From positions 1 through 47,980 of IMG/VR virus record IMGVR_UViG_2565956724_000008: a stretch of 47,980 nt of DNA. The stretch is one strand, 5' to 3'. A model generated the notes under the pieces. It was not told where the DNA came from, made no database searches, and worked only from the letters and a program-made list of their open reading frames with translations. Source of the DNA: a virus (taxonomy: Duplodnaviria; Heunggongvirae; Uroviricota; Caudoviricetes). The translations under genes were made by a program, and so were the position numbers. Positions 1 to 47,980 of the stretch are shown here, in pieces. Positions within the stretch are counted from its first letter, which is position 1. Each line of letters starts with the position of its first letter.

Positions 1-318
1 ATGAAAAAGATAGCTGCTATATCATTAATTAGTATTTTTATTATGTCTGGTTGTGCTGTGCATAATGATGAGACAAGTATCGGTAAATTTGGTCTTGCAT
101 ATAAAAGTAATATTCAGCGTAAACTCGATAACCAATACTACACCGAAGCCGAAGCTTCTTTAGCCAGGGGTAGAATATCTGGTGCAGAAAATATAGTAAA
201 AAATGATGCAACTCATTTCTGTGTTACTCAGGGCAAAAAAATGCAAATAGTTGAGCTGAAGACAGAAGGTGTAGGATTACATGGTGTCGCTCGTCTGACA
301 TTCAAATGTGGAGAGTGA
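1..318 (+). CDS. putative small lipoprotein; host flank outside the prophage att core
   Basis: ORF from ATG at window start; N-terminal signal peptide with lipobox-like MSGC; AT-rich; lies outside the att core at 478..504. Family not recognised. Confidence 0.5.
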   Translation: MKKIAAISLISIFIMSGCAVHNDETSIGKFGLAYKSNIQRKLDNQYYTEAEASLARGRISGAENIVKNDATHFCVTQGKKMQIVELKTEGVGLHGVARLTFKCGE

Positions 319-380
319 GAATATTTTTTGGTAAGCGTCAAATATGCGCGTTCTGGCTGTGCGTAGCCGGAACCTGTGGG

Positions 381-413
381 AGCACGATGCCGATAAGTGA
401 AAGGCATCGTGCT
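381..413. repeat. perfect 11-bp stem / 11-nt loop inverted repeat (agcacgatgcc...ggcatcgtgct)
   Basis: Read directly from sequence; no T-run on either side, so not a classic intrinsic terminator. Confidence 0.4.
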
Positions 414-477
414 ATGAAGGAGGATTCTATCGATGTGGTCAATGGAAGACGGTTACCAGAGATAGGGCTTATGCATA

Positions 478-504
478 AAAAAATAAGCCCGTGTAAGGGA
501 GATT
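478..504. other. P2-type attachment site core (prophage/host junction)
   Basis: Sequence aaaaaataagcccgtgtaagggagatt matches the phage P2 att core as I recall it; located about 80 bp beyond the int stop, as expected for a P2 prophage end. Confidence 0.5.
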
Positions 505-583
505 TAGGGTGTCACCAGTAGGGGCTTTCAACGGTACAATGCGGGTTTGAGCGGCATAAATTACCACTGAAAGCCCTTAAACG

Positions 584-1597
584 TTACTCTACTGTGGACA
601 CTGTGTGGACACTCTCGGCCTCAGTACCACCTCTTAGCGGATTAAGAGAAATGGCGTCCTGAAGGTACTCTGGCGCAAAATGAGCGTAAACCATAGTTTG
701 CTCAATCCGCGTGTGACCTAGTATCCGTTGTAGCGTGATAATACTTCCTCCATTAATCATGAAATGAGTGGCAAAGCTGTGCCTTAGTGCATGTGTGGCT
801 TGCCCCATTGGCAAATCCGGTTTTATTGCTTTCATTGTTCGTCTGAAGCGAGGGTAATCAGCATCAGGGAATAAAAAACCTCGTTTGTTATCCGCGATCA
901 TTTTGGCAACAGCCTCTGAGATCGGGACGGTGCGTGGTTTGTTTGTTTTCGTTTTAACAAACGTGACGCGGTTATGGATGATATTTTCTGCTTTCAAACG
1001 AGCTGCTTCTCCCCAACGTGCTCCAGTACTCAGGCAAAGAATCGCAATCTTTTTGTTGTCGCCGTCAAGAGCAGCAAGCAGTAAGGCAATTTCTTCCTGC
1101 GTGAGATAGCCTGTGTCTGGTTTTTCCTCCTTAAGCCTTTTTGTCCCTCTGATAGGGTGCTCACCAAAGAATAACTCCGCTTCAATCAGGGCTGTAAACA
1201 TGCCGCTAATACATGTTAAATCACGATTGATACTCGAAGGTTTAATACCCTGACTTCTTCGGGTGGCGCAGTACTGGCTGATAAGCGATTTCGTAATTTG
1301 AAATGCGCATGGGTCATTCGTTATTTTTGTGAAGATTTCAATTTTTCCAAGATTAGATTTCCCATGCTCTTCGTGTTTACCCTTTAAATCCCACCAGATC
1401 TGTGTCAGCTCCGACAGACGTCGCTTGTCTGTTGGTTTTGATAGCCATTCTTTATTGTGGTGGTTGTACAACGTGTATTTCTCGAAAGCGACAGCTTCGC
1501 TTTTCTTATCAAACTTCCTACGGATGCGTTTTCCATTACGTCCAGTAGGGCGGATGTCCACTTCATATCGACCATCATCGAGTTTTTTGATTGCCAT
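584..1597 (-). CDS. int: tyrosine integrase (P2 Int-like)
   Basis: 337 aa, the same length as P2 Int; C-terminal HxLRHxxAT...Y catalytic region (ATHALRHSFATHF...VYAHF); adjacent to att core. Confidence 0.9.
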   Translation of the reverse strand: MAIKKLDDGRYEVDIRPTGRNGKRIRRKFDKKSEAVAFEKYTLYNHHNKEWLSKPTDKRRLSELTQIWWDLKGKHEEHGKSNLGKIEIFTKITNDPCAFQITKSLISQYCATRRSQGIKPSSINRDLTCISGMFTALIEAELFFGEHPIRGTKRLKEEKPDTGYLTQEEIALLLAALDGDNKKIAILCLSTGARWGEAARLKAENIIHNRVTFVKTKTNKPRTVPISEAVAKMIADNKRGFLFPDADYPRFRRTMKAIKPDLPMGQATHALRHSFATHFMINGGSIITLQRILGHTRIEQTMVYAHFAPEYLQDAISLNPLRGGTEAESVHTVSTVE

Positions 1598-1712
1598 CAG
1601 AAAACCCTCCGAGTGGTGTGTTTTTTTGCGACTACTAATCGCTTTTTTCGTGGTGGCTGAAATTTAGCCACCAATAGTAGGCACTTGTGATGAATATATT
1701 CACGATGAATTG

Positions 1713-2012
1713 TTAACCAGTCTTTTGACCGGAGTGGGGCGACGTTGTTTCGTTTTGCCCAAAGTGTGCGAGAGCGGGCGCAATTTGCCCGGACTCAGGA
1801 GCGATCTGATTGGTCATGAACCATAAAGTGTATTTGGTGAATTGTGGGGTCTGCAGGATGTTCATCATGACATCTGTTGGAGGTGTTGAACGACCACTTT
1901 CATAGTAACTCAGCGTGCCATACGGAACCCCTGTTAAATCAGCAAGTTGTTGTCTGCTCAAATACTCTGATTTTCGCATTAAGACTATCTTCTCGCTTAT
2001 CGTGTTTGACAT
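1713..2012 (-). CDS. C: immunity repressor C (P2 C-like, HTH)
   Basis: 99 aa as in P2 C; HTH-like segment (LSRQQLADLTGVPYGTLSYYE); divergent from cox across an operator-bearing intergenic region. Confidence 0.85.
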   Translation of the reverse strand: MSNTISEKIVLMRKSEYLSRQQLADLTGVPYGTLSYYESGRSTPPTDVMMNILQTPQFTKYTLWFMTNQIAPESGQIAPALAHFGQNETTSPHSGQKTG

Positions 2013-2015
2013 GGT

Positions 2016-2045
2016 GTTTAGATCTCAATAGTATTTAGTTTAGAT
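2016..2045. promoter_or_regulatory. C-repressor operator-like direct repeats (two GTTTAGAT copies spaced 22 bp) in the Pe/Pc switch region
   Basis: GTTTAGAT at 2016..2023 and 2038..2045 read from sequence, with an A/T-rich -10-like stretch between; matches the known P2 architecture of two 8-bp direct-repeat operators flanking the Pe -10. Confidence 0.5.
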
Positions 2046-2126
2046 GTAGATTGTTTAGTGCTTGGATGTGGGCACTAAAAGGCATTATAAGACATTAAAC
2101 GCAATTCATGAGGGCTAGAGGACGAC

Positions 2127-2402
2127 ATGAGCAAGCAAGTAACACTCATGACTGATGCGATTCCTTATCAGGAGTTCGCAAAACTAATAGGAAAATCGAC
2201 AGGAGCGGTTCGTCGGATGATCGATAAAGGAAAGCTGCCTGTAATTGATATGACCGATCCACAATCAGCTTCAGGTCGTGCTGGTGAATATTGGGTATAC
2301 CTTCCGGCATGGAATAACGGACTAAAACTGGCTTATGAAAGCCGACCTAAAGAGATTCGTGACGGCTGGTTGATGTGGTTAGGTCTCGGTGAACCACGTT
2401 AA
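2127..2402 (+). CDS. cox: Cox excisionase / transcriptional repressor of Pc
   Basis: 91 aa as in P2 Cox; first gene of the early rightward operon, opposite C. Confidence 0.85.
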   Translation: MSKQVTLMTDAIPYQEFAKLIGKSTGAVRRMIDKGKLPVIDMTDPQSASGRAGEYWVYLPAWNNGLKLAYESRPKEIRDGWLMWLGLGEPR

Positions 2403-2583
2403 GGAGAACCGTATGAATGAGCCTCGTTGTATTGCTCAGTTACTGCGTAACGAAAGCCCCAGGGCGATTGACTTCACCATCACCCACGGTAAGGGGCGTA
2501 AGGGAATCATTATCCGCACCAAAAAACAGAGTCCGTTAAAAAAGGCTCTGACCTTTCTGAAAAGCCGGAGGGTATGGAAATGA
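2389..2583 (+). CDS. hypothetical early protein (P2 orf78 position)
   Basis: Small basic ORF between cox and B, overlapping both gene ends; true start may be the internal MNEPRC. Confidence 0.45.
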   Translation: MNHVKENRMNEPRCIAQLLRNESPRAIDFTITHGKGRKGIIIRTKKQSPLKKALTFLKSRRVWK

Positions 2584-3080
2584 CAGTGATGACGCTCAAT
2601 CTCGTTGAAAAACAGCCAGCAGCTATGCGCCGGATAATTGGTAAGCATCTTGCCGTTCCTCGCTGGCAAGATACATGTGATTATTATAATCAGATGATGG
2701 AGCGCGAACGGCTAACAGTTTGCTTTCATGCGCAGTTAAAACAGCGTCACGCAACGATGCGTTTTGAAGAAATGAACGACGTCGAACGTGAACGACTGGT
2801 ATGTGCAATTGATGAATTGCGTGGGGCATTCTCAAAACGTCGTCAGGTCGGTGCAAGTGAGTATGCATATATTAGTTTTTTAACAGTCAGTCAGCGTCGT
2901 ACTTTATTTATGCATGCCGGATTGACTGAAAAAGAATTTAACCAGCCATACTGGCGAATTAATGAAGAGTCATGTTACTGGCGTGATGCTTTATTCCGTG
3001 CATTACGTGAATTATTCAGCCTGTTTGAGTATGCACCGACAATTCTGACGTCGGTAAAACCAGAGCAATATCTGCATTAA
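2574..3080 (+). CDS. B: replication protein B (P2 B-like, helicase-loader function)
   Basis: 168 aa versus P2 B of about 166 aa; position between cox and A. Confidence 0.75.
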   Translation: MEMTVMTLNLVEKQPAAMRRIIGKHLAVPRWQDTCDYYNQMMERERLTVCFHAQLKQRHATMRFEEMNDVERERLVCAIDELRGAFSKRRQVGASEYAYISFLTVSQRRTLFMHAGLTEKEFNQPYWRINEESCYWRDALFRALRELFSLFEYAPTILTSVKPEQYLH

Positions 3081-3143
3081 GTAATTAACCAGAGTTTTTA
3101 ACGCACTTAATCGTGCGGGGCTTCTTTTTGCCTGGAGAAAGTT

Positions 3144-3368
3144 ATGCATACAGTTTCTGAAAATCAGTGCGGTAAATACGCATTACTGCTGCAACAGGCC
3201 AGAACCGAAGCACAGGCCGACGCTGCGACGCGCTTTTCTTCTCATCTTGATGCCATGATTCGCCACATCACAAAGGCGGAGTTATCCCGCGTGGAGATAG
3301 TCGAGCTGCTCAGTCAGGAGTCGGAAAAATTTCACAATATCGGATTGTCTCGCGGGGAGGTGCTTTGA
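3144..3368 (+). CDS. hypothetical early protein (P2 orf80 position)
   Basis: 74-aa ORF in the B-to-A early operon, good coding context. Confidence 0.55.
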
Positions 3369-3670
3369 TGTCCTGTTCTCGTTCAGTTGTATTACTGAAT
3401 AACGCCTTAAAAATCGCCGTTATGAAAAATGGCGATTTGTCTCTTATTCAACTTGGTCTTGATAAAGAAAAACGCGAAATAACTGAGTCTGTTATCGCGA
3501 TTTATCAGAACGAATTAAACCTCCTGTCTGATGTGGTCAATTTGCTTGTTAAACGCGCTGTGTTTCACAAGCAAATCTCCTCCGTGGATGAACTGACGAA
3601 ATTAACGACAGAAATCGCCAGCTATTGCGCTGATGAATTTAAAAACCTTAACGACAAAAGGAACTGGTAA
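3365..3670 (+). CDS. hypothetical early protein (P2 orf81 position)
   Basis: 101-aa ORF; start overlaps the previous stop (ATGA), suggesting translational coupling. Confidence 0.55.
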
Positions 3671-3894
3671 TGCCGGACAACGTAGATTTTATTCAGGCAC
3701 AACAGGCTGAATTACTGGAGCGCCAGATTAACGCGGCAAGGGTAAAACATTGCGGTGCTTCTGCGATGGTTTGCGAAGAGTGTGACGCGCCAATACCTGC
3801 TGCCCGTCGTGCGGCTTATCCGTCAGCCACGCGTTGTGTTTCCTGTCAGTCAGTTTTTGAAGCAAAAAACAAACATTACCGGAGAACGGCATGA
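3670..3894 (+). CDS. TraR/DksA-family C4 zinc-finger protein (P2 orf82 position)
   Basis: 74 aa with CEEC...(17 aa)...CVSC four-cysteine motif typical of the TraR/DksA family. Confidence 0.65.
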   Translation: MPDNVDFIQAQQAELLERQINAARVKHCGASAMVCEECDAPIPAARRAAYPSATRCVSCQSVFEAKNKHYRRTA

Positions 3895-4166
3895 GTATTC
3901 GTATTGAAATTGGCGAACGTTATGTCGTTACCAGTGACAGCTTTCAGTTTATTCTCCACGAGAAAAAGAGAGCTGAAAGCGGTAAAAACGCCGGTCAGGA
4001 ATGGCTGGCGGTGGTTGGTTATTACCCGAAATTAAGCCAGCTCGTTTCCGGCCTGATGCATCACGATATTCTGACCGGAAGCGCAAAGTCTTTTGCTGAT
4101 TTAAACGCGCAGGTTGAGCAAATCAGCAAGCGTTGTTCAGAGGCTTTTGGCTCATATGGCCGTTAA
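3891..4166 (+). CDS. hypothetical early protein (P2 orf83 position)
   Basis: 91-aa ORF immediately upstream of and overlapping the A start. Confidence 0.55.
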   Translation: MSIRIEIGERYVVTSDSFQFILHEKKRAESGKNAGQEWLAVVGYYPKLSQLVSGLMHHDILTGSAKSFADLNAQVEQISKRCSEAFGSYGR

Positions 4167-6429
4167 AGCCTCCGGGCGTTTTGTCCCTCCGTCAGCATTT
4201 GCCGCAGGCACCGGTAAGACGTTTACCGGTGCTTATGCATGGAACGCGCCACGCGAGGCCGTCGGGCGCGAAAGACCCCTTACACGTGACGAGATGCGTC
4301 AGGTGCAAGGTGTTTTATCCACGATTAACCGCCTGCCTTACTTTTTGCGCTCGCTGTTTACTTCACGCTATGACTACATCCGGCGCAATAAAAGCCCGGT
4401 GCACGGGTTTTATTTCCTCACATCCACTTTTCAGCGTCGTTTATGGCCGCGCATTGAGCGTGTGAATCAGCGCCATGAAATGAACACCGACGCGTCGTTG
4501 CTGTTTCTGGCAGAGCGTGATCACTATGCGCGCCTGCCGGGAATGAATGACAAGGAGCTGAAAAAGTTTGCCGCCCGTATCTCATCGCAGCTTTTCATGA
4601 TGTATGAGGAACTCAGCGATGCCTGGGTGGATGCGCATGGCGAAAAAGAATCACTGTTTACGGATGAGGCTCAGGATCACCTGTATGGTCATGTTGCTGG
4701 CGCTGCACGAGCTTTCAATATTTCCCCTCTCTACTGGAAAAAATACCGTAAAAGACAGATGACCACGAGGCAGGCATATTCTGCCATTGCCCGTCTGTTT
4801 AACGATGAGTGGTGGACTCATCAGCTTAAAGGCCAGCGTATGCGCTGGCATGAAGCGTTACTGATAGCTGTCGGGGAGGTCAATAAAGACCGTTCTCCTT
4901 ATGCCAGTAAACACGCCATTCGTGATGTGCGTGCGCGCCGCCAGGCAAATCTGGAATTTCTTAAATCGTGTGACCTTGAAAACAGGGAAACCGGCGAGCG
5001 CATCGACCTTATCAGTAAGGTGATGGGCAGTATTTCTAATCCTGAAATTCGCCGGATGGAGCTGATGAACACCATTGCCGGTATTGAGCGTTACGCCGCT
5101 GCAGAGGGTGATGTGGGGATGTTTATCACGCTGACCGCGCCGTCAAAGTATCACCCGACACGTCAGGTAGGAAAAGGCGAAAGTAAAACCGTGCAGCTTA
5201 ATCACGGCTGGAACGATGAGGCATTTAATCCAAAGGATGCGCAGCGTTATCTCTGCCGTATCTGGAGCCTGATGCGCACGGCATTCAAGGATAATGATTT
5301 ACAGGTCTACGGTTTGCGTGTCGTCGAGCCACACCACGACGGAACGCCGCACTGGCATATGATGCTTTTTTGTAATTCACGCCAGCGTAACCAGATTATC
5401 GAAATCATGCGTCGCTATGCGCTCAAAGAGGATGGCGACGAAAGAGGAGCCGCGCGAAACCGTTTTCAGGCAAAACACCTTAACCGGGGCGGTGCTGCGG
5501 GATATATCGCGAAATACATTTCAAAAAACATCGACGGCTATGCACTGGATGGTCAGCTCGATAACGACACCGGCAGGCCGCTGAAAGACACTGCAGCGGC
5601 TGTTACCGCATGGGCGTCAACGTGGCGCATCCCGCAATTTAAAACGGTTGGCCTGCCGACAATGGGGGCTTACCGTGAACTACGCAAATTGCCGCGCGGC
5701 GTCAGCATTGCTGATGAGTTTGACGAGCGCGTCGAGGCTGCACGCGCCGCCGCAGACAGTGGTGATTTTGCGTTGTATATCAGCGCGCAGGGTGGGGCAA
5801 ATGTCCCGCGCGATTGTCAGACTGTCAGAGTCGCCCGTAGCCCGTCGGATGAAGTTAACGAGTACGAGGAAGAAGTCGAGAGAGTGGTCGGCATTTACGC
5901 GCCGCATCTCGGCGCGCGTCATATTCATATCACCAGAACGACGGACTGGCGCATTGTGCCGAAAGTTCCGGTCGTTGAGCCTTTGACTTTAAAAAGCGGC
6001 ATCGCCGCGCCTCGGAGTCCTGTCAATAACTGTGGAAAGCTCACTGGTGGTGATACTTCGTTACCGGCTCCCACACCTTCTGAGCACGCCGCAGCAGTGC
6101 TTAATCTGGTAGATGACGGTGTTATCGAATGGAATGACCCGGAGGTCGTGAGAGCGCTCAGAAGTGCATTAAAACACGGCCTGAGAAGACCAAACCGTCA
6201 GCAAAGAAACGGAAGCCCGTTAAAACCGCATGAAATAGCGCCATCGGCCAGACTGACCCGGTCGGAACGAATGCAAATTACCCGTATCCGCGTTGACCTT
6301 ACTCAGAACGGTATCAGGCCTCAGCGATGGGAGCTTGAGGCGCTGGCGCGTGGGGCAACTGTAAATTATGACGGGAAAAAATTCACGTATCCGGTTGCTG
6401 ATGAGTGGTCGGGATTTTCCTCAAACTAA
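4156..6429 (+). CDS. A: rolling-circle replication initiator endonuclease A
   Basis: Long ORF; I place the start at in-frame ATG 4156 (MAVKASGRF..., as in P2 A) rather than ORF-track 4114; P2 A is about 761 aa. Contains HxH-type (PHWHMM) and YIAKYISK motifs of rolling-circle Rep proteins. Confidence 0.9.
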   Translation: MAVKASGRFVPPSAFAAGTGKTFTGAYAWNAPREAVGRERPLTRDEMRQVQGVLSTINRLPYFLRSLFTSRYDYIRRNKSPVHGFYFLTSTFQRRLWPRIERVNQRHEMNTDASLLFLAERDHYARLPGMNDKELKKFAARISSQLFMMYEELSDAWVDAHGEKESLFTDEAQDHLYGHVAGAARAFNISPLYWKKYRKRQMTTRQAYSAIARLFNDEWWTHQLKGQRMRWHEALLIAVGEVNKDRSPYASKHAIRDVRARRQANLEFLKSCDLENRETGERIDLISKVMGSISNPEIRRMELMNTIAGIERYAAAEGDVGMFITLTAPSKYHPTRQVGKGESKTVQLNHGWNDEAFNPKDAQRYLCRIWSLMRTAFKDNDLQVYGLRVVEPHHDGTPHWHMMLFCNSRQRNQIIEIMRRYALKEDGDERGAARNRFQAKHLNRGGAAGYIAKYISKNIDGYALDGQLDNDTGRPLKDTAAAVTAWASTWRIPQFKTVGLPTMGAYRELRKLPRGVSIADEFDERVEAARAAADSGDFALYISAQGGANVPRDCQTVRVARSPSDEVNEYEEEVERVVGIYAPHLGARHIHITRTTDWRIVPKVPVVEPLTLKSGIAAPRSPVNNCGKLTGGDTSLPAPTPSEHAAAVLNLVDDGVIEWNDPEVVRALRSALKHGLRRPNRQQRNGSPLKPHEIAPSARLTRSERMQITRIRVDLTQNGIRPQRWELEALARGATVNYDGKKFTYPVADEWSGFSSN

Positions 6430-6601: not shown

Positions 6602-6634
6602 GGGCAAGAAGGTGTTCTTGCCCTTTGTTTATTT
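6602..6634. terminator. bidirectional rho-independent terminator between convergent A and SIR2 genes
   Basis: gggcaagaa-ggtg-ttcttgccc hairpin followed by tttgtttattt on + and by a T-rich run on -; read directly. Confidence 0.6.
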
Positions 6635-9532: not shown

Positions 9533-9551
9533 GGCGAGGCGGGGAAAGCAC
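9533..9551. other. cos cohesive-end site (P2-type 19 nt)
   Basis: ggcgaggcggggaaagcac matches the P2 cohesive-end sequence as I recall it; lies between the cargo gene and Q, as in P2. Confidence 0.55.
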
Positions 9552-9720: not shown

Positions 9721-10755
9721 TCAGCCGTTGTCAGTGTCCAGTGAGTAGTTTTTAAAGCGGATGACCTCCTGACCGAGCCAGCCGTTTATCTCGCGGATCC
9801 TGTCCTGTAGCGGGATAAGTTCATTGCGGACAAAGACCTTTGCCACTTTCTCAATATCACCCAGCGACCCGACGTTCTCCGGCTTGCCGCCCATCAACTG
9901 AAAGGGGATGCGGTGCGCGTCCAGCAGGTCAGCGGCGCTGGCTTTTTTGATATTAAAAAAATCGTCCTTCGTTGCCACTTCACTGAGCGGGATAATTTTA
10001 ATGCCGTCGGCTTTCCCCTGCGGGGCATAGAGAAACAGATTTTTAAAGTTGTTGCGGCCTTTCGACTTGACCATGTTTTCGCGAAGCATTTCGATATCGT
10101 TGCGATCCTGCACGGCATCAGTGACGTACATGATGTATCCGGCATGTGCGCCATTTTCGTAATACTTGCGGCGGAACAGCGTGGCCGACTCATTCAGCCA
10201 GGCAGAGTTAAGGGCGCTGAGATATTCCGGCAGGCCGTACAGCTCCTGATTAATATCCGGCTCCAGCAGGTGAAACACGGAGCCGGGCGCGAAGGCTGTC
10301 GGCTCGTTGAAGGACGGCACCCACCAGTAAACATCCTCTTCCACACCACGGCGGGTATATTTTGCCGGTGAGGTTTCCAGCCTGATAACTTTACCGGTGG
10401 TGCTGTAACGCTTTTCCAGAAATGCATTACCAAATACCAGAAAATCCAGCACAAAGCGGCTGAAATCCTGCTGGGAAAGCCATGGATGCGGGATAAATGT
10501 CGAGGCCAGAATATTACGTTTGACGTAAATCGGTGAGCTGTGATGCACGGCAGCACGCAGGCTTTTTGCCAGACCGGTAAAGCTGACCGGCGGCTCATAC
10601 CATCTGCCGTTACTGATGCATTCGACGTAATCCAGAATGTCACGGCGGTCGAGCACCGGCACCGGCTCACCAAAGGTGAATGCCTCCATTTTCGGGGCGC
10701 TGGCAGTCATTTTTTTTGCCGCAGGTTGCGGTGTTTTCCCTTTTTTCTTGCTCAT
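9721..10755 (-). CDS. Q: portal protein Q
   Basis: 344 aa as in P2 Q; N-terminus MSKKKGKTPQPAAKK; first gene after cos. Confidence 0.9.
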   Translation of the reverse strand: MSKKKGKTPQPAAKKMTASAPKMEAFTFGEPVPVLDRRDILDYVECISNGRWYEPPVSFTGLAKSLRAAVHHSSPIYVKRNILASTFIPHPWLSQQDFSRFVLDFLVFGNAFLEKRYSTTGKVIRLETSPAKYTRRGVEEDVYWWVPSFNEPTAFAPGSVFHLLEPDINQELYGLPEYLSALNSAWLNESATLFRRKYYENGAHAGYIMYVTDAVQDRNDIEMLRENMVKSKGRNNFKNLFLYAPQGKADGIKIIPLSEVATKDDFFNIKKASAADLLDAHRIPFQLMGGKPENVGSLGDIEKVAKVFVRNELIPLQDRIREINGWLGQEVIRFKNYSLDTDNG

Positions 10756-12527: not shown

Positions 12528-12700
12528 GAATACCTCGCCGTGATGAATACACGGCAAGGCTACTGAGTCGCGCCCCGCGATTCGCTAAGGTGCTGTTGTG
12601 TCAGTGATAAGCCATCCGGGACTGATGGCGGAGGATGCGCATCGTCGGGAAACTGATGCCGACATGTGACTCCTCTAATCACTATTCAGGACTCCTGACA

Positions 12701-14687: not shown

Positions 14688-14690
14688 CCG

Positions 14691-33290: not shown

Positions 33291-33293
33291 CGG

Positions 33294-38260: not shown

Positions 38261-38429
38261 ACATCGCCGCCTGCGGGCGGCTTTTTTACAACCCGCCATC
38301 ACGCCCTCACACGCTCACCACCGCACAAAACATCCCACAGACACACCAACGCCCCGGCGAACAATCTAAACGCCATCACGACGCGCTCAGACGCTGAAAA
38401 AATAAAATCAGCACCACCGCCAGCGCGCA

Positions 38430-38448
38430 GTGCTTTCCCCGCCTCGCC
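38430..38448. other. cos cohesive-end site (mirror copy)
   Basis: gtgctttccccgcctcgcc, the reverse complement of the left-arm cos; checked in sequence. Confidence 0.55.
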
Positions 38449-38753
38449 CGCCCGCTTCATGAGACGGTTTTAATGCAGTTGCATGAAATAACCTAAAGCG
38501 CACCAGCTCTGACATAACAACATTAGTAAGCATCTGACAAATGCATGCAAAATCATTCAACGCTATGGTACATCATAAACTATTAGTACAAGCTAATTAG
38601 CCTCTAGCGAACAATAAAAAAGTATTTCTCCCTCATAGCTTGATCTCAGTCACAAAATGCAAATAAGAAAAACGAAAACCCATTGAATTTCATGTAAAAA
38701 TAGCCATACCTAGGATTATTCTTACTTCACACAGCATAATTTATGGAGGGAAA

Positions 38754-41348: not shown

Positions 41349-41379
41349 ATAAACAAAGGGCAAGAACACCTTCTTGCCC
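41347..41379. terminator. bidirectional terminator (mirror copy)
   Basis: Mirror of 6602..6634. Confidence 0.6.
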
Positions 41380-41551
41380 TATATTATTTCATATAGTTAC
41401 TTATCCTTAATCCAACCCATAACAATCGCATGTTGAAAACTTAGCCGTTATTTTTATTCATATCACTCGAAACTATTGTACTCTAACCGAATGGTTATAC
41501 AGATAAATAAAATTCTTAGTCTCATCAACATCTCTTTGTCAAACACCATTA

Positions 41552-43825
41552 TTAGTTTGAGGAAAATCCCGACCACTCATCAGCAACCGGATACGTGAAT
41601 TTTTTCCCGTCATAATTTACAGTTGCCCCACGCGCCAGCGCCTCAAGCTCCCATCGCTGAGGCCTGATACCGTTCTGAGTAAGGTCAACGCGGATACGGG
41701 TAATTTGCATTCGTTCCGACCGGGTCAGTCTGGCCGATGGCGCTATTTCATGCGGTTTTAACGGGCTTCCGTTTCTTTGCTGACGGTTTGGTCTTCTCAG
41801 GCCGTGTTTTAATGCACTTCTGAGCGCTCTCACGACCTCCGGGTCATTCCATTCGATAACACCGTCATCTACCAGATTAAGCACTGCTGCGGCGTGCTCA
41901 GAAGGTGTGGGAGCCGGTAACGAAGTATCACCACCAGTGAGCTTTCCACAGTTATTGACAGGACTCCGAGGCGCGGCGATGCCGCTTTTTAAAGTCAAAG
42001 GCTCAACGACCGGAACTTTCGGCACAATGCGCCAGTCCGTCGTTCTGGTGATATGAATATGACGCGCGCCGAGATGCGGCGCGTAAATGCCGACCACTCT
42101 CTCGACTTCTTCCTCGTACTCGTTAACTTCATCCGACGGGCTACGGGCGACTCTGACAGTCTGACAATCGCGCGGGACATTTGCCCCACCCTGCGCGCTG
42201 ATATACAACGCAAAATCACCACTGTCTGCGGCGGCGCGTGCAGCCTCGACGCGCTCGTCAAACTCATCAGCAATGCTGACGCCGCGCGGCAATTTGCGTA
42301 GTTCACGGTAAGCCCCCATTGTCGGCAGGCCAACCGTTTTAAATTGCGGGATGCGCCACGTTGACGCCCATGCGGTAACAGCCGCTGCAGTGTCTTTCAG
42401 CGGCCTGCCGGTGTCGTTATCGAGCTGACCATCCAGTGCATAGCCGTCGATGTTTTTTGAAATGTATTTCGCGATATATCCCGCAGCACCGCCCCGGTTA
42501 AGGTGTTTTGCCTGAAAACGGTTTCGCGCGGCTCCTCTTTCGTCGCCATCCTCTTTGAGCGCATAGCGACGCATGATTTCGATAATCTGGTTACGCTGGC
42601 GTGAATTACAAAAAAGCATCATATGCCAGTGCGGCGTTCCGTCGTGGTGTGGCTCGACGACACGCAAACCGTAGACCTGTAAATCATTATCCTTGAATGC
42701 CGTGCGCATCAGGCTCCAGATACGGCAGAGATAACGCTGCGCATCCTTTGGATTAAATGCCTCATCGTTCCAGCCGTGATTAAGCTGCACGGTTTTACTT
42801 TCGCCTTTTCCTACCTGACGTGTCGGGTGATACTTTGACGGCGCGGTCAGCGTGATAAACATCCCCACATCACCCTCTGCAGCGGCGTAACGCTCAATAC
42901 CGGCAATGGTGTTCATCAGCTCCATCCGGCGAATTTCAGGATTAGAAATACTGCCCATCACCTTACTGATAAGGTCGATGCGCTCGCCGGTTTCCCTGTT
43001 TTCAAGGTCACACGATTTAAGAAATTCCAGATTTGCCTGGCGGCGCGCACGCACATCACGAATGGCGTGTTTACTGGCATAAGGAGAACGGTCTTTATTG
43101 ACCTCCCCGACAGCTATCAGTAACGCTTCATGCCAGCGCATACGCTGGCCTTTAAGCTGATGAGTCCACCACTCATCGTTAAACAGACGGGCAATGGCAG
43201 AATATGCCTGCCTCGTGGTCATCTGTCTTTTACGGTATTTTTTCCAGTAGAGAGGGGAAATATTGAAAGCTCGTGCAGCGCCAGCAACATGACCATACAG
43301 GTGATCCTGAGCCTCATCCGTAAACAGTGATTCTTTTTCGCCATGCGCATCCACCCAGGCATCGCTGAGTTCCTCATACATCATGAAAAGCTGCGATGAG
43401 ATACGGGCGGCAAACTTTTTCAGCTCCTTGTCATTCATTCCCGGCAGGCGCGCATAGTGATCACGCTCTGCCAGAAACAGCAACGACGCGTCGGTGTTCA
43501 TTTCATGGCGCTGATTCACACGCTCAATGCGCGGCCATAAACGACGCTGAAAAGTGGATGTGAGGAAATAAAACCCGTGCACCGGGCTTTTATTGCGCCG
43601 GATGTAGTCATAGCGTGAAGTAAACAGCGAGCGCAAAAAGTAAGGCAGGCGGTTAATCGTGGATAAAACACCTTGCACCTGACGCATCTCGTCACGTGTA
43701 AGGGGTCTTTCGCGCCCGACGGCCTCGCGTGGCGCGTTCCATGCATAAGCACCGGTAAACGTCTTACCGGTGCCTGCGGCAAATGCTGACGGAGGGACAA
43801 AACGCCCGGAGGCTTTAACGGCCAT
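41552..43825 (-). CDS. A: replication initiator A (mirror copy)
   Basis: Mirror of 4156..6429. Confidence 0.9.
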   Translation of the reverse strand: MAVKASGRFVPPSAFAAGTGKTFTGAYAWNAPREAVGRERPLTRDEMRQVQGVLSTINRLPYFLRSLFTSRYDYIRRNKSPVHGFYFLTSTFQRRLWPRIERVNQRHEMNTDASLLFLAERDHYARLPGMNDKELKKFAARISSQLFMMYEELSDAWVDAHGEKESLFTDEAQDHLYGHVAGAARAFNISPLYWKKYRKRQMTTRQAYSAIARLFNDEWWTHQLKGQRMRWHEALLIAVGEVNKDRSPYASKHAIRDVRARRQANLEFLKSCDLENRETGERIDLISKVMGSISNPEIRRMELMNTIAGIERYAAAEGDVGMFITLTAPSKYHPTRQVGKGESKTVQLNHGWNDEAFNPKDAQRYLCRIWSLMRTAFKDNDLQVYGLRVVEPHHDGTPHWHMMLFCNSRQRNQIIEIMRRYALKEDGDERGAARNRFQAKHLNRGGAAGYIAKYISKNIDGYALDGQLDNDTGRPLKDTAAAVTAWASTWRIPQFKTVGLPTMGAYRELRKLPRGVSIADEFDERVEAARAAADSGDFALYISAQGGANVPRDCQTVRVARSPSDEVNEYEEEVERVVGIYAPHLGARHIHITRTTDWRIVPKVPVVEPLTLKSGIAAPRSPVNNCGKLTGGDTSLPAPTPSEHAAAVLNLVDDGVIEWNDPEVVRALRSALKHGLRRPNRQQRNGSPLKPHEIAPSARLTRSERMQITRIRVDLTQNGIRPQRWELEALARGATVNYDGKKFTYPVADEWSGFSSN

Positions 43826-44090
43826 ATGAGCCAAAAGCCTCTGAACAACGCTTGCTGATTTGCTCAACCTGCGCGTTTAAATCAGCAAAAGACTTTGCGC
43901 TTCCGGTCAGAATATCGTGATGCATCAGGCCGGAAACGAGCTGGCTTAATTTCGGGTAATAACCAACCACCGCCAGCCATTCCTGACCGGCGTTTTTACC
44001 GCTTTCAGCTCTCTTTTTCTCGTGGAGAATAAACTGAAAGCTGTCACTGGTAACGACATAACGTTCGCCAATTTCAATACGAATACTCAT
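43815..44090 (-). CDS. hypothetical early protein, orf83 position (mirror copy)
   Basis: Mirror of 3891..4166. Confidence 0.55.
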   Translation of the reverse strand: MSIRIEIGERYVVTSDSFQFILHEKKRAESGKNAGQEWLAVVGYYPKLSQLVSGLMHHDILTGSAKSFADLNAQVEQISKRCSEAFGSYGR

Positions 44091-44311
44091 GCCGTTCTCC
44101 GGTAATGTTTGTTTTTTGCTTCAAAAACTGACTGACAGGAAACACAACGCGTGGCTGACGGATAAGCCGCACGACGGGCAGCAGGTATTGGCGCGTCACA
44201 CTCTTCGCAAACCATCGCAGAAGCACCGCAATGTTTTACCCTTGCCGCGTTAATCTGGCGCTCCAGTAATTCAGCCTGTTGTGCCTGAATAAAATCTACG
44301 TTGTCCGGCAT
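44087..44311 (-). CDS. TraR/DksA-family zinc-finger protein (mirror copy)
   Basis: Mirror of 3670..3894. Confidence 0.65.
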   Translation of the reverse strand: MPDNVDFIQAQQAELLERQINAARVKHCGASAMVCEECDAPIPAARRAAYPSATRCVSCQSVFEAKNKHYRRTA

Positions 44312-44616
44312 TACCAGTTCCTTTTGTCGTTAAGGTTTTTAAATTCATCAGCGCAATAGCTGGCGATTTCTGTCGTTAATTTCGTCAGTTCATCCACGGA
44401 GGAGATTTGCTTGTGAAACACAGCGCGTTTAACAAGCAAATTGACCACATCAGACAGGAGGTTTAATTCGTTCTGATAAATCGCGATAACAGACTCAGTT
44501 ATTTCGCGTTTTTCTTTATCAAGACCAAGTTGAATAAGAGACAAATCGCCATTTTTCATAACGGCGATTTTTAAGGCGTTATTCAGTAATACAACTGAAC
44601 GAGAACAGGACATCAA
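44311..44616 (-). CDS. hypothetical early protein, orf81 position (mirror copy)
   Basis: Mirror of 3365..3670. Confidence 0.55.
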
Positions 44617-44837
44617 AGCACCTCCCCGCGAGACAATCCGATATTGTGAAATTTTTCCGACTCCTGACTGAGCAGCTCGACTATCTCCACGCGGGATAAC
44701 TCCGCCTTTGTGATGTGGCGAATCATGGCATCAAGATGAGAAGAAAAGCGCGTCGCAGCGTCGGCCTGTGCTTCGGTTCTGGCCTGTTGCAGCAGTAATG
44801 CGTATTTACCGCACTGATTTTCAGAAACTGTATGCAT
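44613..44837 (-). CDS. hypothetical early protein, orf80 position (mirror copy)
   Basis: Mirror of 3144..3368. Confidence 0.55.
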
Positions 44838-44900
44838 AACTTTCTCCAGGCAAAAAGAAGCCCCGCACGATTAAGTGCGTTAAAAACTCTGGTTAATTAC

Positions 44901-45407
44901 TTAATGCAGATATTGCTCTGGTTTTACCGACGTCAGAATTGTCGGTGCATACTCAAACAGGCTGAATAATTCACGTAATGCACGGAATAAAGCATCACGC
45001 CAGTAACATGACTCTTCATTAATTCGCCAGTATGGCTGGTTAAATTCTTTTTCAGTCAATCCGGCATGCATAAATAAAGTACGACGCTGACTGACTGTTA
45101 AAAAACTAATATATGCATACTCACTTGCACCGACCTGACGACGTTTTGAGAATGCCCCACGCAATTCATCAATTGCACATACCAGTCGTTCACGTTCGAC
45201 GTCGTTCATTTCTTCAAAACGCATCGTTGCGTGACGCTGTTTTAACTGCGCATGAAAGCAAACTGTTAGCCGTTCGCGCTCCATCATCTGATTATAATAA
45301 TCACATGTATCTTGCCAGCGAGGAACGGCAAGATGCTTACCAATTATCCGGCGCATAGCTGCTGGCTGTTTTTCAACGAGATTGAGCGTCATCACTGTCA
45401 TTTCCAT
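44901..45407 (-). CDS. B: replication protein B (mirror copy)
   Basis: Mirror of 2574..3080. Confidence 0.75.
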   Translation of the reverse strand: MEMTVMTLNLVEKQPAAMRRIIGKHLAVPRWQDTCDYYNQMMERERLTVCFHAQLKQRHATMRFEEMNDVERERLVCAIDELRGAFSKRRQVGASEYAYISFLTVSQRRTLFMHAGLTEKEFNQPYWRINEESCYWRDALFRALRELFSLFEYAPTILTSVKPEQYLH

Positions 45408-45592
45408 ACCCTCCGGCTTTTCAGAAAGGTCAGAGCCTTTTTTAACGGACTCTGTTTTTTGGTGCGGATAATGATTCCCTTACGCCCCTTACCGTGGGTG
45501 ATGGTGAAGTCAATCGCCCTGGGGCTTTCGTTACGCAGTAACTGAGCAATACAACGAGGCTCATTCATACGGTTCTCCTTAACGTGGTTCAC
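45398..45592 (-). CDS. hypothetical early protein, orf78 position (mirror copy)
   Basis: Mirror of 2389..2583. Confidence 0.45.
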   Translation of the reverse strand: MNHVKENRMNEPRCIAQLLRNESPRAIDFTITHGKGRKGIIIRTKKQSPLKKALTFLKSRRVWK

Positions 45593-45854
45593 CGAGACCT
45601 AACCACATCAACCAGCCGTCACGAATCTCTTTAGGTCGGCTTTCATAAGCCAGTTTTAGTCCGTTATTCCATGCCGGAAGGTATACCCAATATTCACCAG
45701 CACGACCTGAAGCTGATTGTGGATCGGTCATATCAATTACAGGCAGCTTTCCTTTATCGATCATCCGACGAACCGCTCCTGTCGATTTTCCTATTAGTTT
45801 TGCGAACTCCTGATAAGGAATCGCATCAGTCATGAGTGTTACTTGCTTGCTCAT
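45579..45854 (-). CDS. cox: Cox (mirror copy)
   Basis: Mirror of 2127..2402. Confidence 0.85.
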   Translation of the reverse strand: MSKQVTLMTDAIPYQEFAKLIGKSTGAVRRMIDKGKLPVIDMTDPQSASGRAGEYWVYLPAWNNGLKLAYESRPKEIRDGWLMWLGLGEPR

Positions 45855-45935
45855 GTCGTCCTCTAGCCCTCATGAATTGCGTTTAATGTCTTATAATGCC
45901 TTTTAGTGCCCACATCCAAGCACTAAACAATCTAC

Positions 45936-45965
45936 ATCTAAACTAAATACTATTGAGATCTAAAC
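45936..45965. promoter_or_regulatory. C-operator-like direct repeats in Pe/Pc region (mirror copy)
   Basis: Mirror of 2016..2045. Confidence 0.5.
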
Positions 45966-45968
45966 ACC

Positions 45969-46268
45969 ATGTCAAACACGATAAGCGAGAAGATAGTCTT
46001 AATGCGAAAATCAGAGTATTTGAGCAGACAACAACTTGCTGATTTAACAGGGGTTCCGTATGGCACGCTGAGTTACTATGAAAGTGGTCGTTCAACACCT
46101 CCAACAGATGTCATGATGAACATCCTGCAGACCCCACAATTCACCAAATACACTTTATGGTTCATGACCAATCAGATCGCTCCTGAGTCCGGGCAAATTG
46201 CGCCCGCTCTCGCACACTTTGGGCAAAACGAAACAACGTCGCCCCACTCCGGTCAAAAGACTGGTTAA
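45969..46268 (+). CDS. C: immunity repressor C (mirror copy)
   Basis: Mirror of 1713..2012. Confidence 0.85.
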   Translation: MSNTISEKIVLMRKSEYLSRQQLADLTGVPYGTLSYYESGRSTPPTDVMMNILQTPQFTKYTLWFMTNQIAPESGQIAPALAHFGQNETTSPHSGQKTG

Positions 46269-46383
46269 CAATTCATCGTGAATATATTCATCACAAGTGC
46301 CTACTATTGGTGGCTAAATTTCAGCCACCACGAAAAAAGCGATTAGTAGTCGCAAAAAAACACACCACTCGGAGGGTTTTCTG

Positions 46384-47397
46384 ATGGCAATCAAAAAACT
46401 CGATGATGGTCGATATGAAGTGGACATCCGCCCTACTGGACGTAATGGAAAACGCATCCGTAGGAAGTTTGATAAGAAAAGCGAAGCTGTCGCTTTCGAG
46501 AAATACACGTTGTACAACCACCACAATAAAGAATGGCTATCAAAACCAACAGACAAGCGACGTCTGTCGGAGCTGACACAGATCTGGTGGGATTTAAAGG
46601 GTAAACACGAAGAGCATGGGAAATCTAATCTTGGAAAAATTGAAATCTTCACAAAAATAACGAATGACCCATGCGCATTTCAAATTACGAAATCGCTTAT
46701 CAGCCAGTACTGCGCCACCCGAAGAAGTCAGGGTATTAAACCTTCGAGTATCAATCGTGATTTAACATGTATTAGCGGCATGTTTACAGCCCTGATTGAA
46801 GCGGAGTTATTCTTTGGTGAGCACCCTATCAGAGGGACAAAAAGGCTTAAGGAGGAAAAACCAGACACAGGCTATCTCACGCAGGAAGAAATTGCCTTAC
46901 TGCTTGCTGCTCTTGACGGCGACAACAAAAAGATTGCGATTCTTTGCCTGAGTACTGGAGCACGTTGGGGAGAAGCAGCTCGTTTGAAAGCAGAAAATAT
47001 CATCCATAACCGCGTCACGTTTGTTAAAACGAAAACAAACAAACCACGCACCGTCCCGATCTCAGAGGCTGTTGCCAAAATGATCGCGGATAACAAACGA
47101 GGTTTTTTATTCCCTGATGCTGATTACCCTCGCTTCAGACGAACAATGAAAGCAATAAAACCGGATTTGCCAATGGGGCAAGCCACACATGCACTAAGGC
47201 ACAGCTTTGCCACTCATTTCATGATTAATGGAGGAAGTATTATCACGCTACAACGGATACTAGGTCACACGCGGATTGAGCAAACTATGGTTTACGCTCA
47301 TTTTGCGCCAGAGTACCTTCAGGACGCCATTTCTCTTAATCCGCTAAGAGGTGGTACTGAGGCCGAGAGTGTCCACACAGTGTCCACAGTAGAGTAA
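46384..47397 (+). CDS. int: tyrosine integrase (mirror copy)
   Basis: Mirror of 584..1597. Confidence 0.9.
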   Translation: MAIKKLDDGRYEVDIRPTGRNGKRIRRKFDKKSEAVAFEKYTLYNHHNKEWLSKPTDKRRLSELTQIWWDLKGKHEEHGKSNLGKIEIFTKITNDPCAFQITKSLISQYCATRRSQGIKPSSINRDLTCISGMFTALIEAELFFGEHPIRGTKRLKEEKPDTGYLTQEEIALLLAALDGDNKKIAILCLSTGARWGEAARLKAENIIHNRVTFVKTKTNKPRTVPISEAVAKMIADNKRGFLFPDADYPRFRRTMKAIKPDLPMGQATHALRHSFATHFMINGGSIITLQRILGHTRIEQTMVYAHFAPEYLQDAISLNPLRGGTEAESVHTVSTVE

Positions 47398-47476
47398 CGT
47401 TTAAGGGCTTTCAGTGGTAATTTATGCCGCTCAAACCCGCATTGTACCGTTGAAAGCCCCTACTGGTGACACCCTA

Positions 47477-47503
47477 AATCTCCCTTACACGGGCTTATTT
47501 TTT
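47477..47503. other. P2-type att core (mirror copy)
   Basis: Mirror of 478..504. Confidence 0.5.
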
Positions 47504-47662
47504 TATGCATAAGCCCTATCTCTGGTAACCGTCTTCCATTGACCACATCGATAGAATCCTCCTTCATAGCACGATGCCTTTCACTTATCGGCATCGTGCT
47601 CCCACAGGTTCCGGCTACGCACAGCCAGAACGCGCATATTTGACGCTTACCAAAAAATATTC

Positions 47663-47980
47663 TCACTCTCCACATTTGAATGTCAGACGAGCGACACCAT
47701 GTAATCCTACACCTTCTGTCTTCAGCTCAACTATTTGCATTTTTTTGCCCTGAGTAACACAGAAATGAGTTGCATCATTTTTTACTATATTTTCTGCACC
47801 AGATATTCTACCCCTGGCTAAAGAAGCTTCGGCTTCGGTGTAGTATTGGTTATCGAGTTTACGCTGAATATTACTTTTATATGCAAGACCAAATTTACCG
47901 ATACTTGTCTCATCATTATGCACAGCACAACCAGACATAATAAAAATACTAATTAATGATATAGCAGCTATCTTTTTCAT
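47663..47980 (-). CDS. putative host lipoprotein (mirror copy)
   Basis: Mirror of 1..318; the last 20 nt of the window are the exact reverse complement of the first 20 nt. Confidence 0.5.
   Translation of the reverse strand: MKKIAAISLISIFIMSGCAVHNDETSIGKFGLAYKSNIQRKLDNQYYTEAEASLARGRISGAENIVKNDATHFCVTQGKKMQIVELKTEGVGLHGVARLTFKCGE

What the first reader, a model, noticed from the sequence alone, without database searches (positions are those of the whole stretch)
1..47980. Whole window is a ~48 kb near-perfect palindrome: two inverted copies of a 23 kb host-flank plus prophage arm joined at a 1.84 kb unique centre
Every left-arm ORF has a mirror ORF with identical translation at 47981-x, and the first and last 20 nt, the cos site and the centre boundaries are exact reverse complements; symmetry breaks only at 23071/24910. 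A genuine 23-kb inverted duplication would be highly unstable and unusual. Because the fold point coincides with an invertase-type inverted repeat, the likelier explanation is an assembly or chimeric-read artefact (an assembler walking through the invertible cassette and back down the same arm, or a foldback read). Other candidates are a real head-to-head inverted dimer or a deliberately constructed sequence. I did not verify identity at every base.
Basis: seen in the sequence. Interest (0 to 1): 0.85.

Follow-up and report, generated by a model that had tools for sequence, protein, structure and literature searches.

The report
Fold-back misassembly at invertible tail-fibre cassette
The 48-kb perfect palindrome is real in the deposited sequence, but it is almost certainly an assembly error: the assembler entered a phage's flip-flop tail-fibre switch in one orientation, left it in the other, and ran back down the same DNA.

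Summary
Window 1-23070 is the exact reverse complement of 24911-47980, with 0 mismatches, around a 1,840-bp asymmetric centre.

The window is positions 8877-56856 of GenBank scaffold KI538795.1 (E. coli draft GCA_000495075.1). Each arm holds host yegR, attL and the left two-thirds of a P2-type prophage, from int to the constant part of tail-fibre gene H.

The centre is a Pin/Gin-type invertible cassette (Hv-G / G'-Hv') bounded by 26-bp pix-like crossover sites. Two public assemblies differ only by an exact flip of this same 1,840-bp segment.

Both junctions in the window occur naturally. The left one is the (+) state and the right one is the reverse complement of the (-) state, and each is found at 99.8-100% identity in closed genomes. 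The combination is found nowhere else: not in any of 5,426 closed E. coli genomes, nor in the other contigs read that carry the same fibre alleles. All of those continue into pixR, invertase, FI, FII, E, T, U, D, ogr, attR and trhP, which the window lacks.

The best explanation (about 0.93) is that a culture mixed for cassette orientation was mis-phased across 1.84 kb by a short-read assembler. The biology underneath is well known.

The parts
1..318 (+). Host gene yegR (105 aa). The window starts exactly at its ATG. Mirror copy at 47663-47980 (-).
   Evidence: Annotated yegR in closed genomes; Pfam YegR in gene calls.
478..504 (+). attL core AAAAAATAAGCCCGTGTAAGGGAGATT, the host/prophage boundary. 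Mirror copy at 47477-47503. No attR anywhere in the window.
   Evidence: Identity to the empty yegR-trhP site ends at 504. The same 27-mer recurs at attR between ogr and trhP in complete relatives.
584..6429 (.). P2-type early region: int (584-1597 -), C repressor (1713-2012 -), cox (2127-2402 +), small ORFs, replication protein A (4156-6429 +).
   Evidence: Gene calls and Pfam for the same record; clean translations.
6633..9227 (-). Low-GC cargo gene in the A/Q hotspot encoding an 864-aa SIR2-domain protein, a likely anti-phage defence gene. Mirror copy at 38754-41348 (+).
   Evidence: Pfam SIR2_2; PADLOC SIR2 models match the N-terminal domain only; GC about 0.32-0.36.
9533..9551 (+). P2 cos 19-mer. 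Mirror copy at 38430-38448.
   Evidence: Exact match. That this 19-mer is the P2 cos sequence is from memory.
9721..22233 (.). P2 late genes Q, P (-) and O, N, M, L, X, Y, K, lysA, lysB, R, S, orf251, V, W, J, I (+).
   Evidence: Pfam in gene calls of the same record; 96-97.5% identity to P2-type phages.
22230..23070 (+). Constant 5' part of tail-fibre gene H (280 codons shared by both fibre variants).
   Evidence: H435 and H392 are identical for 280 N-terminal residues; Pfam Phage_tail_fib 1-150.
23044..23069 (+). Left 26-bp crossover site TTCTCGCATACC TT GGTTTGGGAGAA (pixL-like).
   Evidence: Din-family site table in PMC3241671.
23071..24910 (.). Invertible segment S (1,840 bp): Hv(Collar)-G200 on +, G146-Hv'(Gp53-like_C) on -. 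Full genes as read here: H435 22230-23537 (+), G200 23537-24139 (+), G146 24111-24551 (-), H392 24573-25751 (-).
   Evidence: Only asymmetric part of the window; Pfam; the same 1,840 bp is exactly inverted between L018 and L050.
24912..24937 (-). Second copy of the LEFT-type site, the exact reverse complement of 23044-23069. A genuine prophage has the pixR-type site TTCTCCCAAACCAACGTTTATGAAAA here. This is the chimeric signature.
   Evidence: two left-type sites and no right-type site in the window.
24911..47980 (-). Mirror arm: the same 23,070 bp traversed a second time in reverse complement. Most likely not a separate piece of DNA.
   Evidence: 0 mismatches. In closed genomes homology to the window stops at 24925-24928 and continues into the invertase gene.

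Best explanation
The palindrome is a fold-back misassembly in draft scaffold KI538795.1. The strain carries an ordinary P2-type prophage at the yegR/trhP att site. Its tail-fibre gene H ends in a Pin/Gin-type invertible cassette S of 1,840 bp. S is flanked by 26-bp crossover sites and, in the real genome, is followed by a serine invertase gene and the remaining tail genes (region B). The invertase flips S, so the sequenced culture held both A-S(+)-B and A-S(-)-B molecules. Reads therefore supported A joined to either end of S. S is longer than a short read, so the assembler could not tell which end was attached to A in the same molecule. It chose the path A -> S -> reverse-complement(A) and wrote the same 23 kb twice. 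Shown: exact symmetry; the identity of the centre with the naturally inverting segment; both junctions occurring naturally in separate states; absence of region B; uniqueness of the fold-back. Inferred: the mixed population in this particular read set, and the graph path the assembler took.
For: (1) The arms are identical at 23,070 of 23,070 positions, as expected if the same graph nodes were emitted twice.
(2) The window equals KI538795.1:8877-56856, part of a scaffold-level draft.
(3) L018 and L050 are contigs of identical length (223,855 bp) from two assemblies. Over 11.3 kb they differ only by an exact inversion of a 1,840-bp segment with the same boundaries as the window's centre. The segment therefore flips in nature.
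(4) The left junction matches closed genomes in the (+) state at 99.8% (PE144). The right junction matches closed genomes in the (-) state at 100% over 1,601 bp (ECE313). Among closed genomes, 26 carry the (+) state and 23 the (-) state.
(5) True prophages have different outer half-sites: left TTCTCGCATACC and right TTTTCATAAACG. Only 15 bp are shared exactly. The window has the left outer half-site at both ends and no right-type site. That is what A-S(+) fused to rc(A-S(-)) predicts.
(6) None of 5,426 closed E. coli genomes aligns across both junctions. The best coverage is 89%, ending at window 24925-24928.
(7) Of the 24 contigs read for each exact fibre allele, only KI538795.1 folds back. 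Every other place that reaches beyond the cassette continues into a 197-aa Resolvase+HTH_7 invertase and then sheath, tube, E, T, U, D, ogr, attR and trhP.
(8) L052 is 99.75% identical to the arm and begins the normal layout: a truncated Collar fragment rather than a full-length H435.
(9) The palindrome includes host DNA (yegR, attL). It therefore cannot be a phage replication intermediate.
(10) Literature: single E. coli cultures contain both orientations of prophage tail-fibre cassettes, and these produce alternate contigs and a risk of 'artefactual duplications in phage regions' (PMC4134206). Whole-contig palindromes are a recognised short-read assembly error (PMC9455707; bioRxiv 10.1101/2023.06.06.543983).
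Against: No reads, coverage or assembly graph were available, so the artefact is inferred and not observed. The first 8,876 bp of the scaffold, left of the window, could not be fetched. I therefore could not confirm that the mirror runs to the scaffold end, nor rule out a second novel junction. I could not show that the invertase-to-ogr half of the prophage lies on another scaffold of the same assembly. The assembler and library types used for GCA_000495075.1 are not known to me from tool output. If mate-pair libraries were used, they should have argued against an A-to-A' link.
Confidence: 0.93

Rival explanations
1. A real head-to-head structure. Homologous recombination within S between two sister chromosomes (or chromosome copies) carrying S in opposite orientations would fuse them into an inverted dimer containing A-S-A' and, reciprocally, B'-S-B.
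For: Both orientation states exist, so 1.84 kb of inverted homology between sister molecules is available. Such an exchange gives exactly the observed junctions, including left-type sites at both ends. Nothing in the sequence alone distinguishes it from the artefact.
Against: Such a dimer is a whole-chromosome inverted fusion. It would be rare, transient and hard to segregate, and would not be the consensus of a culture. It is absent from 5,426 closed genomes and from all other contigs read with these alleles. The structure lacks the invertase, eight late genes and attR, which all relatives keep. The zero divergence between arms shows no evolutionary age.
Confidence: 0.04
2. A library or read-level chimera rather than a graph mis-traversal. 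In this reading, a fold-back or template-switch molecule formed in vitro within S between (+) and (-) state templates and was then used by the assembler.
For: In-vitro template switching between molecules sharing 1.84 kb in opposite contexts would give the same product. Hairpin artefacts at contig ends are a known concern (PMC4134206).
Against: Ordinary fold-back reads break at arbitrary points and have no unique spacer. Here the spacer is precisely the invertible segment with both natural junctions intact. A 23-kb arm cannot come from one short read, so the assembler must still have extended both arms from normal reads. The outcome is an artefact either way.
Confidence: 0.03
3. Two separate prophages inserted in opposite orientation, or a deliberately constructed sequence.
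For: None beyond the overall appearance.
Against: There are 0 mismatches over 23 kb, and the duplicated part includes host yegR and attL. There is no attR, and only one cassette sits between the two copies. The sequence is verbatim in a public GenBank scaffold.
Confidence: 0

Closest known systems
e14 P region / Pin; also Mu G segment / Gin and P1 C segment / Cin (Din-family invertible tail-fibre switches)
   Same: A constant 5' fibre part lies outside the segment. Two alternative 3' fibre parts, each with its own Caudo_TAP chaperone, lie in mirror arrangement inside a segment of about 1.8 kb. The segment is bounded by 26-bp sites with a central AA/TT. In the complete relatives the right site is identical to e14 pixR, and the adjacent 197-aa invertase matches Mu Gin (PDB 3UJ3) at E = 6e-94.
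   Different: The host element is a P2-type prophage. In the window itself the invertase gene and the pixR-type site are missing and replaced by a second left-type site plus the mirrored arm. That is not a configuration of any described switch.
[quoted passage not shown]
   Same: Invertible 2-3 kb tail-fibre segments with 26-bp crossover sites. Both orientations are present in one DNA preparation and disturb the assembly (alternate contigs). The authors warn of artefactual duplications.
   Different: In EC958 the long reads kept the alternate alleles as separate small contigs. Here they were merged into one fold-back contig.
Palindromic contigs produced by short-read assemblers (PMC9455707; bioRxiv 10.1101/2023.06.06.543983)
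   Same: [quoted passage not shown] Those authors judged them to be assembly errors.
   Different: Those reports do not identify the pivot. Here the pivot is an identified site-specific inversion cassette, which explains why the graph allows the U-turn.
Bacteriophage P2 and P2-type peduoviruses (for example KC618326, R18C, pro483)
   Same: Gene order int-C-cox-...-A-[hotspot]-cos-Q-P-O-N-M-L-X-Y-K-lysA-lysB-R-S-V-W-J-I-H, 96-97.5% DNA identity over the late region, with the 27-bp att core and the cos 19-mer.
   Different: An invertible H/G cassette with invertase in the relatives, and SIR2 cargo in the A/Q hotspot. From memory, P2 itself has a fixed H-G and tin/old in the hotspot.

Membership tests
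Din-family (Pin/Gin/Cin/Hin) invertible tail-fibre segment | Two 26-bp crossover sites in inverted orientation matching the dix pattern TTC---AAAC- -A -GTTT---GAA | tested here: met
   Sites at 23044-23069 and 24912-24937. They differ from pixL at 3 of 26 positions. Caveat: both are copies of the left site.
Din-family (Pin/Gin/Cin/Hin) invertible tail-fibre segment | Adjacent serine DNA-invertase gene (Resolvase + HTH_7) | tested here: not met
   Absent from the window. Present immediately after the cassette in every normal relative that extends past it. Gin-like at E = 6e-94.
Din-family (Pin/Gin/Cin/Hin) invertible tail-fibre segment | Constant fibre 5' part outside the segment; alternative 3' parts plus chaperones mirrored inside | tested here: met
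   280 shared N-terminal residues. The alternative C-termini are Collar and Gp53-like_C, and there are two Caudo_TAP genes.
Din-family (Pin/Gin/Cin/Hin) invertible tail-fibre segment | Segment actually inverts | tested here: met
   L018 and L050 differ only by an exact 1,840-bp inversion. Among closed genomes, 26 are in the (+) state and 23 in the (-) state.
Din-family (Pin/Gin/Cin/Hin) invertible tail-fibre segment | Fis-dependent recombinational enhancer within the invertase gene | not tested
   The invertase gene is not in the window, and the enhancer was not searched for in relatives.
Fold-back (palindromic) contig assembly artefact | Arms identical base for base | tested here: met
   0 mismatches in 23,070 bp.
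Fold-back (palindromic) contig assembly artefact | Pivot is a sequence with two alternative, individually real neighbours (a graph branch) | tested here: met
   Each junction is found separately in closed genomes in the two states. The half-site pattern agrees.
Fold-back (palindromic) contig assembly artefact | Structure not reproduced in independent or closed assemblies of the same element | tested here: met
   None of 5,426 closed genomes has it. KI538795.1 is the only fold-back among the contigs read for both fibre alleles.
Fold-back (palindromic) contig assembly artefact | No read or read pair spans the pivot into both arms; arm coverage is 1x | not testable with these tools
   No access to reads or coverage.
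P2-type (Peduovirus) prophage | Complete genome from attL to attR with P2 gene order | tested here: not met
   The left part (int to H) is present and 96-97.5% identical to P2-type phages. Invertase, FI, FII, E, E', T, U, D, ogr and attR are absent from the window but present in relatives.
Genuine chromosomal inverted duplication | A second novel junction where the duplicated arm ends | not testable with these tools
   KI538795.1:1-8876 could not be fetched. Indirect evidence comes: 25 places were reported on 24 contigs, neither copy on this scaffold was listed separately, and the merging rule is strict. This suggests the left flank carries the same host genes as the right flank, so the mirror continues.

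The most novel reading that the evidence does not exclude
The fold-back is physically real. In this reading, an inverted chromosome dimer, or a large inverted duplication, arose by homologous exchange within the invertible cassette between sister chromosomes that had switched to opposite orientations. It was abundant enough in the culture to be assembled. That would make site-specific inversion switches a source of gross palindromic rearrangement in bacteria.
Probability: 0.04. Interest if true: 0.55.

Novelty: not a real feature. Interest (0 to 1): 0.08.

Why it matters
As biology it does not matter. The prophage, its Pin-type fibre switch and its SIR2 cargo are all of known kinds.

It matters as data hygiene. 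A public GenBank scaffold carries at least 23 kb of spurious inverted duplication. Prophage callers will read this as a 48-kb 'phage' with every gene doubled, two attL, no attR and no tail sheath. Pangenome and copy-number analyses will count the genes twice.

The case also gives a clean rule for spotting this class of error. The pivot equals a known invertible segment, the same outer half-site appears at both ends, and the invertase is missing.

The chimera itself implies that both orientations were present in the sequenced culture, so the switch was active in that lysogen.

Tried and rejected
- Source in IMG/VR: a scan with the 61-nt right junction gave one hit on a short contig, so the window is not from that collection.
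- Left 8.9 kb of KI538795.1: look-ups with replication protein A and yegR did not return it. The yegR variant occurs in 49,245 index blocks, and the two copies of A on the scaffold were merged with similar places. Only indirect evidence was obtained.
- End of the independent Logan contig SRR958580_4: it is identical to window 1-16429 and to the host flank. A capsid look-up did not read it. By coordinate arithmetic it ends at about window 23111, roughly 41 bp into the cassette. That fits a graph branch or repeat there but is not diagnostic, and I do not lean on it.
- A suspected second fold-back contig ('similar place' next to L020): the wider-flank look-up showed it to be L070, a contig that merely ends inside the cassette.
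- Walk-back through the inverted repeat itself: rejected. The true left and right sites share only 15 exact bp, too short for the k-mer sizes in common use (from memory). Mis-phasing across S explains the structure at any k.
- Invertase acting on left site x left site: rejected. It would not leave S between the arms. In addition, from established knowledge of serine invertases, the asymmetric AA/TT core blocks antiparallel exchange.
- Finding the invertase half of the prophage elsewhere in the same assembly: not attempted. The look-up tool only accepts window proteins or 90%-cluster representatives, so the chance of hitting the strain's exact allele was too low to justify the cost of a homology search.


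Full report
**1. Observation**

Comparing the window with its own reverse complement position by position shows that 1-23070 and 24911-47980 are exact reverse complements, with 0 mismatches in 23,070 bp. All 1,430 positional mismatches lie in 23071-24910, so the centre is 1,840 bp.

**2. Provenance**

Exact-protein look-ups found the fold-back gene order on GenBank scaffold KI538795.1 (1,326,264 bp, draft assembly GCA_000495075.1). That order has both full-length fibre genes with I, J, W and V mirrored. Loci L012, L020 and L057 from that record match the window with 0 mismatches. They place the window at positions 8877-56856 in the same orientation.

The sequence is therefore a public deposit and not a construct. 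To the right, the record runs on normally into yegS and other host genes. The window starts exactly at the ATG of host gene yegR and ends at its mirror image, so it was cut at gene boundaries. The ends are not natural contig ends.

**3. What the arms are**

Each arm holds the following:
- host yegR (1-318);
- the 27-bp att core (478-504), where identity to the empty yegR-trhP site stops;
- the left two-thirds of a P2-type prophage: int, C, cox, A; an 864-aa low-GC SIR2-domain cargo gene in the A/Q hotspot; the cos 19-mer (9533-9551); then Q, P, O, N, M, L, X, Y, K, lysA, lysB, R, S, orf251, V, W, J, I and the first 280 codons of tail-fibre gene H.

The late region is 96-97.5% identical to P2-type phages. 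In complete relatives the same att core recurs at attR, between ogr and trhP. The window has two attL copies and no attR.

**4. What the centre is**

The 1,840-bp centre encodes four elements:
- on the + strand, the Collar-type C-terminus of H (H435) and a 200-aa Caudo_TAP chaperone;
- on the - strand, a 146-aa Caudo_TAP chaperone and a Gp53-like_C-type fibre C-terminus, which forms H392 with the constant part taken from the mirrored arm.

It is bounded by 26-bp sites: TTCTCGCATACC TT GGTTTGGGAGAA at 23044-23069 and its exact reverse complement at 24912-24937. This is the architecture of the Mu G, P1 C and e14 P invertible segments.

In complete relatives the cassette is followed by a 197-aa Resolvase+HTH_7 protein. 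That protein matches Mu Gin (PDB 3UJ3) at E = 6e-94 over its full length. Their right-hand site, TTCTCCCAAACC AA CGTTTATGAAAA, is identical to e14 pixR as tabulated in PMC3241671.

**5. The segment flips in nature, with exactly these boundaries**

L018 and L050 come from two assemblies whose contigs have the same length, 223,855 bp. Over 11,308 bp they differ only by an exact inversion of a 1,840-bp segment, with 0 mismatches after reverse-complementing. This produces 1,430 positional mismatches, the same number as the window's self-comparison. Among closed E. coli genomes, 26 carry this cassette in the (+) state and 23 in the (-) state.

**6. Why the window is a chimera of the two states**

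In real prophages the two sites share only the inner half-site plus the central dinucleotide, 15 exact bp. The outer half-sites differ: left TTCTCGCATACC, right TTTTCATAAACG. The window has the left outer half-site at both ends and no right-type site.

Call the left arm A, the segment S and the right region B. The (+) state is A-S-B. The (-) state is A-rc(S)-B, which read on the other strand is rc(B)-S-rc(A). The window's left junction, A|S, is therefore the (+) junction; it is 99.8% identical to strain PE144. Its right junction, S|rc(A), is the (-) junction; it is 100% identical over 1,601 bp to strain ECE313.

Both junctions are real. Their co-occurrence on one molecule is not seen anywhere else:
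- In closed genomes, homology to the window stops at 24925-24928, inside the right site. It then continues into invertase, sheath, tube, E, T, U, D, ogr, attR and trhP.
- None of 5,426 closed genomes aligns across both junctions.
- Among the contigs read that carry the exact H392 or H435 alleles, only KI538795.1 folds back.
- L052, which is 99.75% identical to the arm, has a truncated Collar fragment in place of a full-length H435, which is the normal layout.

**7. Mechanism (inferred)**

A culture of this lysogen holds both orientations. This is documented for E. coli prophage fibre cassettes in PMC4134206, where the alternate alleles came out as extra contigs. Those authors warn that integrating such contigs causes 'artefactual duplications in phage regions'.

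Each end of S then has two valid neighbours, which allows four traversals: A-S-B, rc(B)-S-rc(A), A-S-rc(A) and rc(B)-S-B. Unless reads or pairs phase the two ends of S across 1.84 kb, an assembler can emit A-S-rc(A). Every k-mer of that path is supported at any k, and its arms are necessarily identical.

Whole-contig palindromes of this kind are reported as short-read assembly errors in PMC9455707 (81 contigs) and in bioRxiv 10.1101/2023.06.06.543983.

**8. Why a real structure is unlikely**

- The palindrome includes chromosomal DNA (yegR, attL), so it is not a phage replicative form.
- A real A-S-rc(A) in a circular chromosome needs either a second novel junction or a whole-chromosome inverted dimer. 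Such a dimer could arise by homologous exchange within S between sisters in opposite states, but it would be rare and unstable.
- The structure lacks the invertase, eight late genes and attR, all of which every relative retains.
- The arms show no divergence at all.

I give the real-structure reading about 0.04.

**9. What I could not do**

I had no reads, coverage or assembly graph. I could not fetch KI538795.1:1-8876.

There is an indirect hint about that region. The look-up for protein A reported 25 places on 24 contigs, which is consistent with two copies on this scaffold, yet neither copy was listed separately. The merging rule is strict: L028 shares 19 of 22 neighbour proteins with L023 and was still listed separately. 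This suggests the unseen left flank carries the same host genes as the right flank, so the mirror continues beyond the window. A gene-poor flank could produce the same outcome, so this remains weak evidence.

The Logan contig SRR958580_4 is identical to window 1-16429 and to the host flank. By arithmetic it ends about 41 bp into the cassette. L070 is another assembly whose contig ends inside the cassette. Both suggest that assemblers tend to break here, but neither is diagnostic.

**10. Verdict**

The feature is not real biology; it is a fold-back misassembly pivoting on a well-known type of invertible tail-fibre switch. Interest is low. The value lies in flagging the GenBank record and in the diagnostic rule: the pivot equals an invertible segment, the same outer half-site sits at both ends, and the invertase is missing.

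Noticed in passing
L018:1001-12308 vs L050:1-11308 (segment at L050 5842-7681): Two NCBI assemblies (GCA_053778755.1 and GCA_051334165.1) have contigs of identical length, 223,855 bp. Over the compared 11.3 kb they differ only by an exact flip of the 1,840-bp cassette. This looks like one clone captured in both switch states.
   Followed up: yes
window 6633-9227 (-), mirrored 38754-41348 (+): An 864-aa low-GC SIR2-domain protein sits in the P2 A/Q hotspot. PADLOC and Pfam match only the N-terminal SIR2 domain (pAgo-associated SIR2 and PDC-S65 models), and roughly 500 C-terminal residues are unassigned. The exact protein is widespread (607 index blocks).
   Followed up: partly
window 18904-19659 (+), mirrored 28322-29077 (-): A 251-aa ORF lies between tail genes S and V. 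It has no Pfam or PADLOC hit and is annotated as hypothetical in closed genomes.
   Followed up: partly
L001:23913-23938; window 24912-24937: The right crossover site of the complete relatives is identical over all 26 bases to e14 pixR. The window's site differs from e14 pixL at 3 of 26 positions. The P2-type prophage cassette and the e14 P region therefore appear to share a recombination system.
   Followed up: partly
window 1 and 47980: The window begins exactly at the yegR start codon and ends at its mirror image. The window boundaries were therefore set at gene edges, and the palindrome probably extends beyond the window on the left of scaffold KI538795.1.
   Followed up: partly
Hotspot between A and Q in relatives: L001 7389-8318; L002 34356-35900; L055 1645-2652; L056 4454-5776: The same hotspot holds different cargo in near-identical prophages: SIR2, a 514-aa reverse transcriptase, a DUF4238 protein, a PAPS-reductase-like gene, or an unannotated 440-aa ORF.
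   Followed up: no
L070 (GCA_026888975.1 contig end at locus 12667); Logan SRR958580_4 (end inferred at about window 23111): Other assemblies break their contigs a few tens of bases inside the Collar-encoding end of the cassette. The cassette is therefore a recurrent assembly trouble spot.
   Followed up: partly
L007 (GCA_050996075.1) 3344-15501; L004 (CP123966.1) 8974-13437: The SIR2 gene also occurs in degraded contexts. In L007 a prophage remnant joins the portal gene directly to tail genes. In L004 a fragment with a truncated portal sits among unrelated genes.
   Followed up: no
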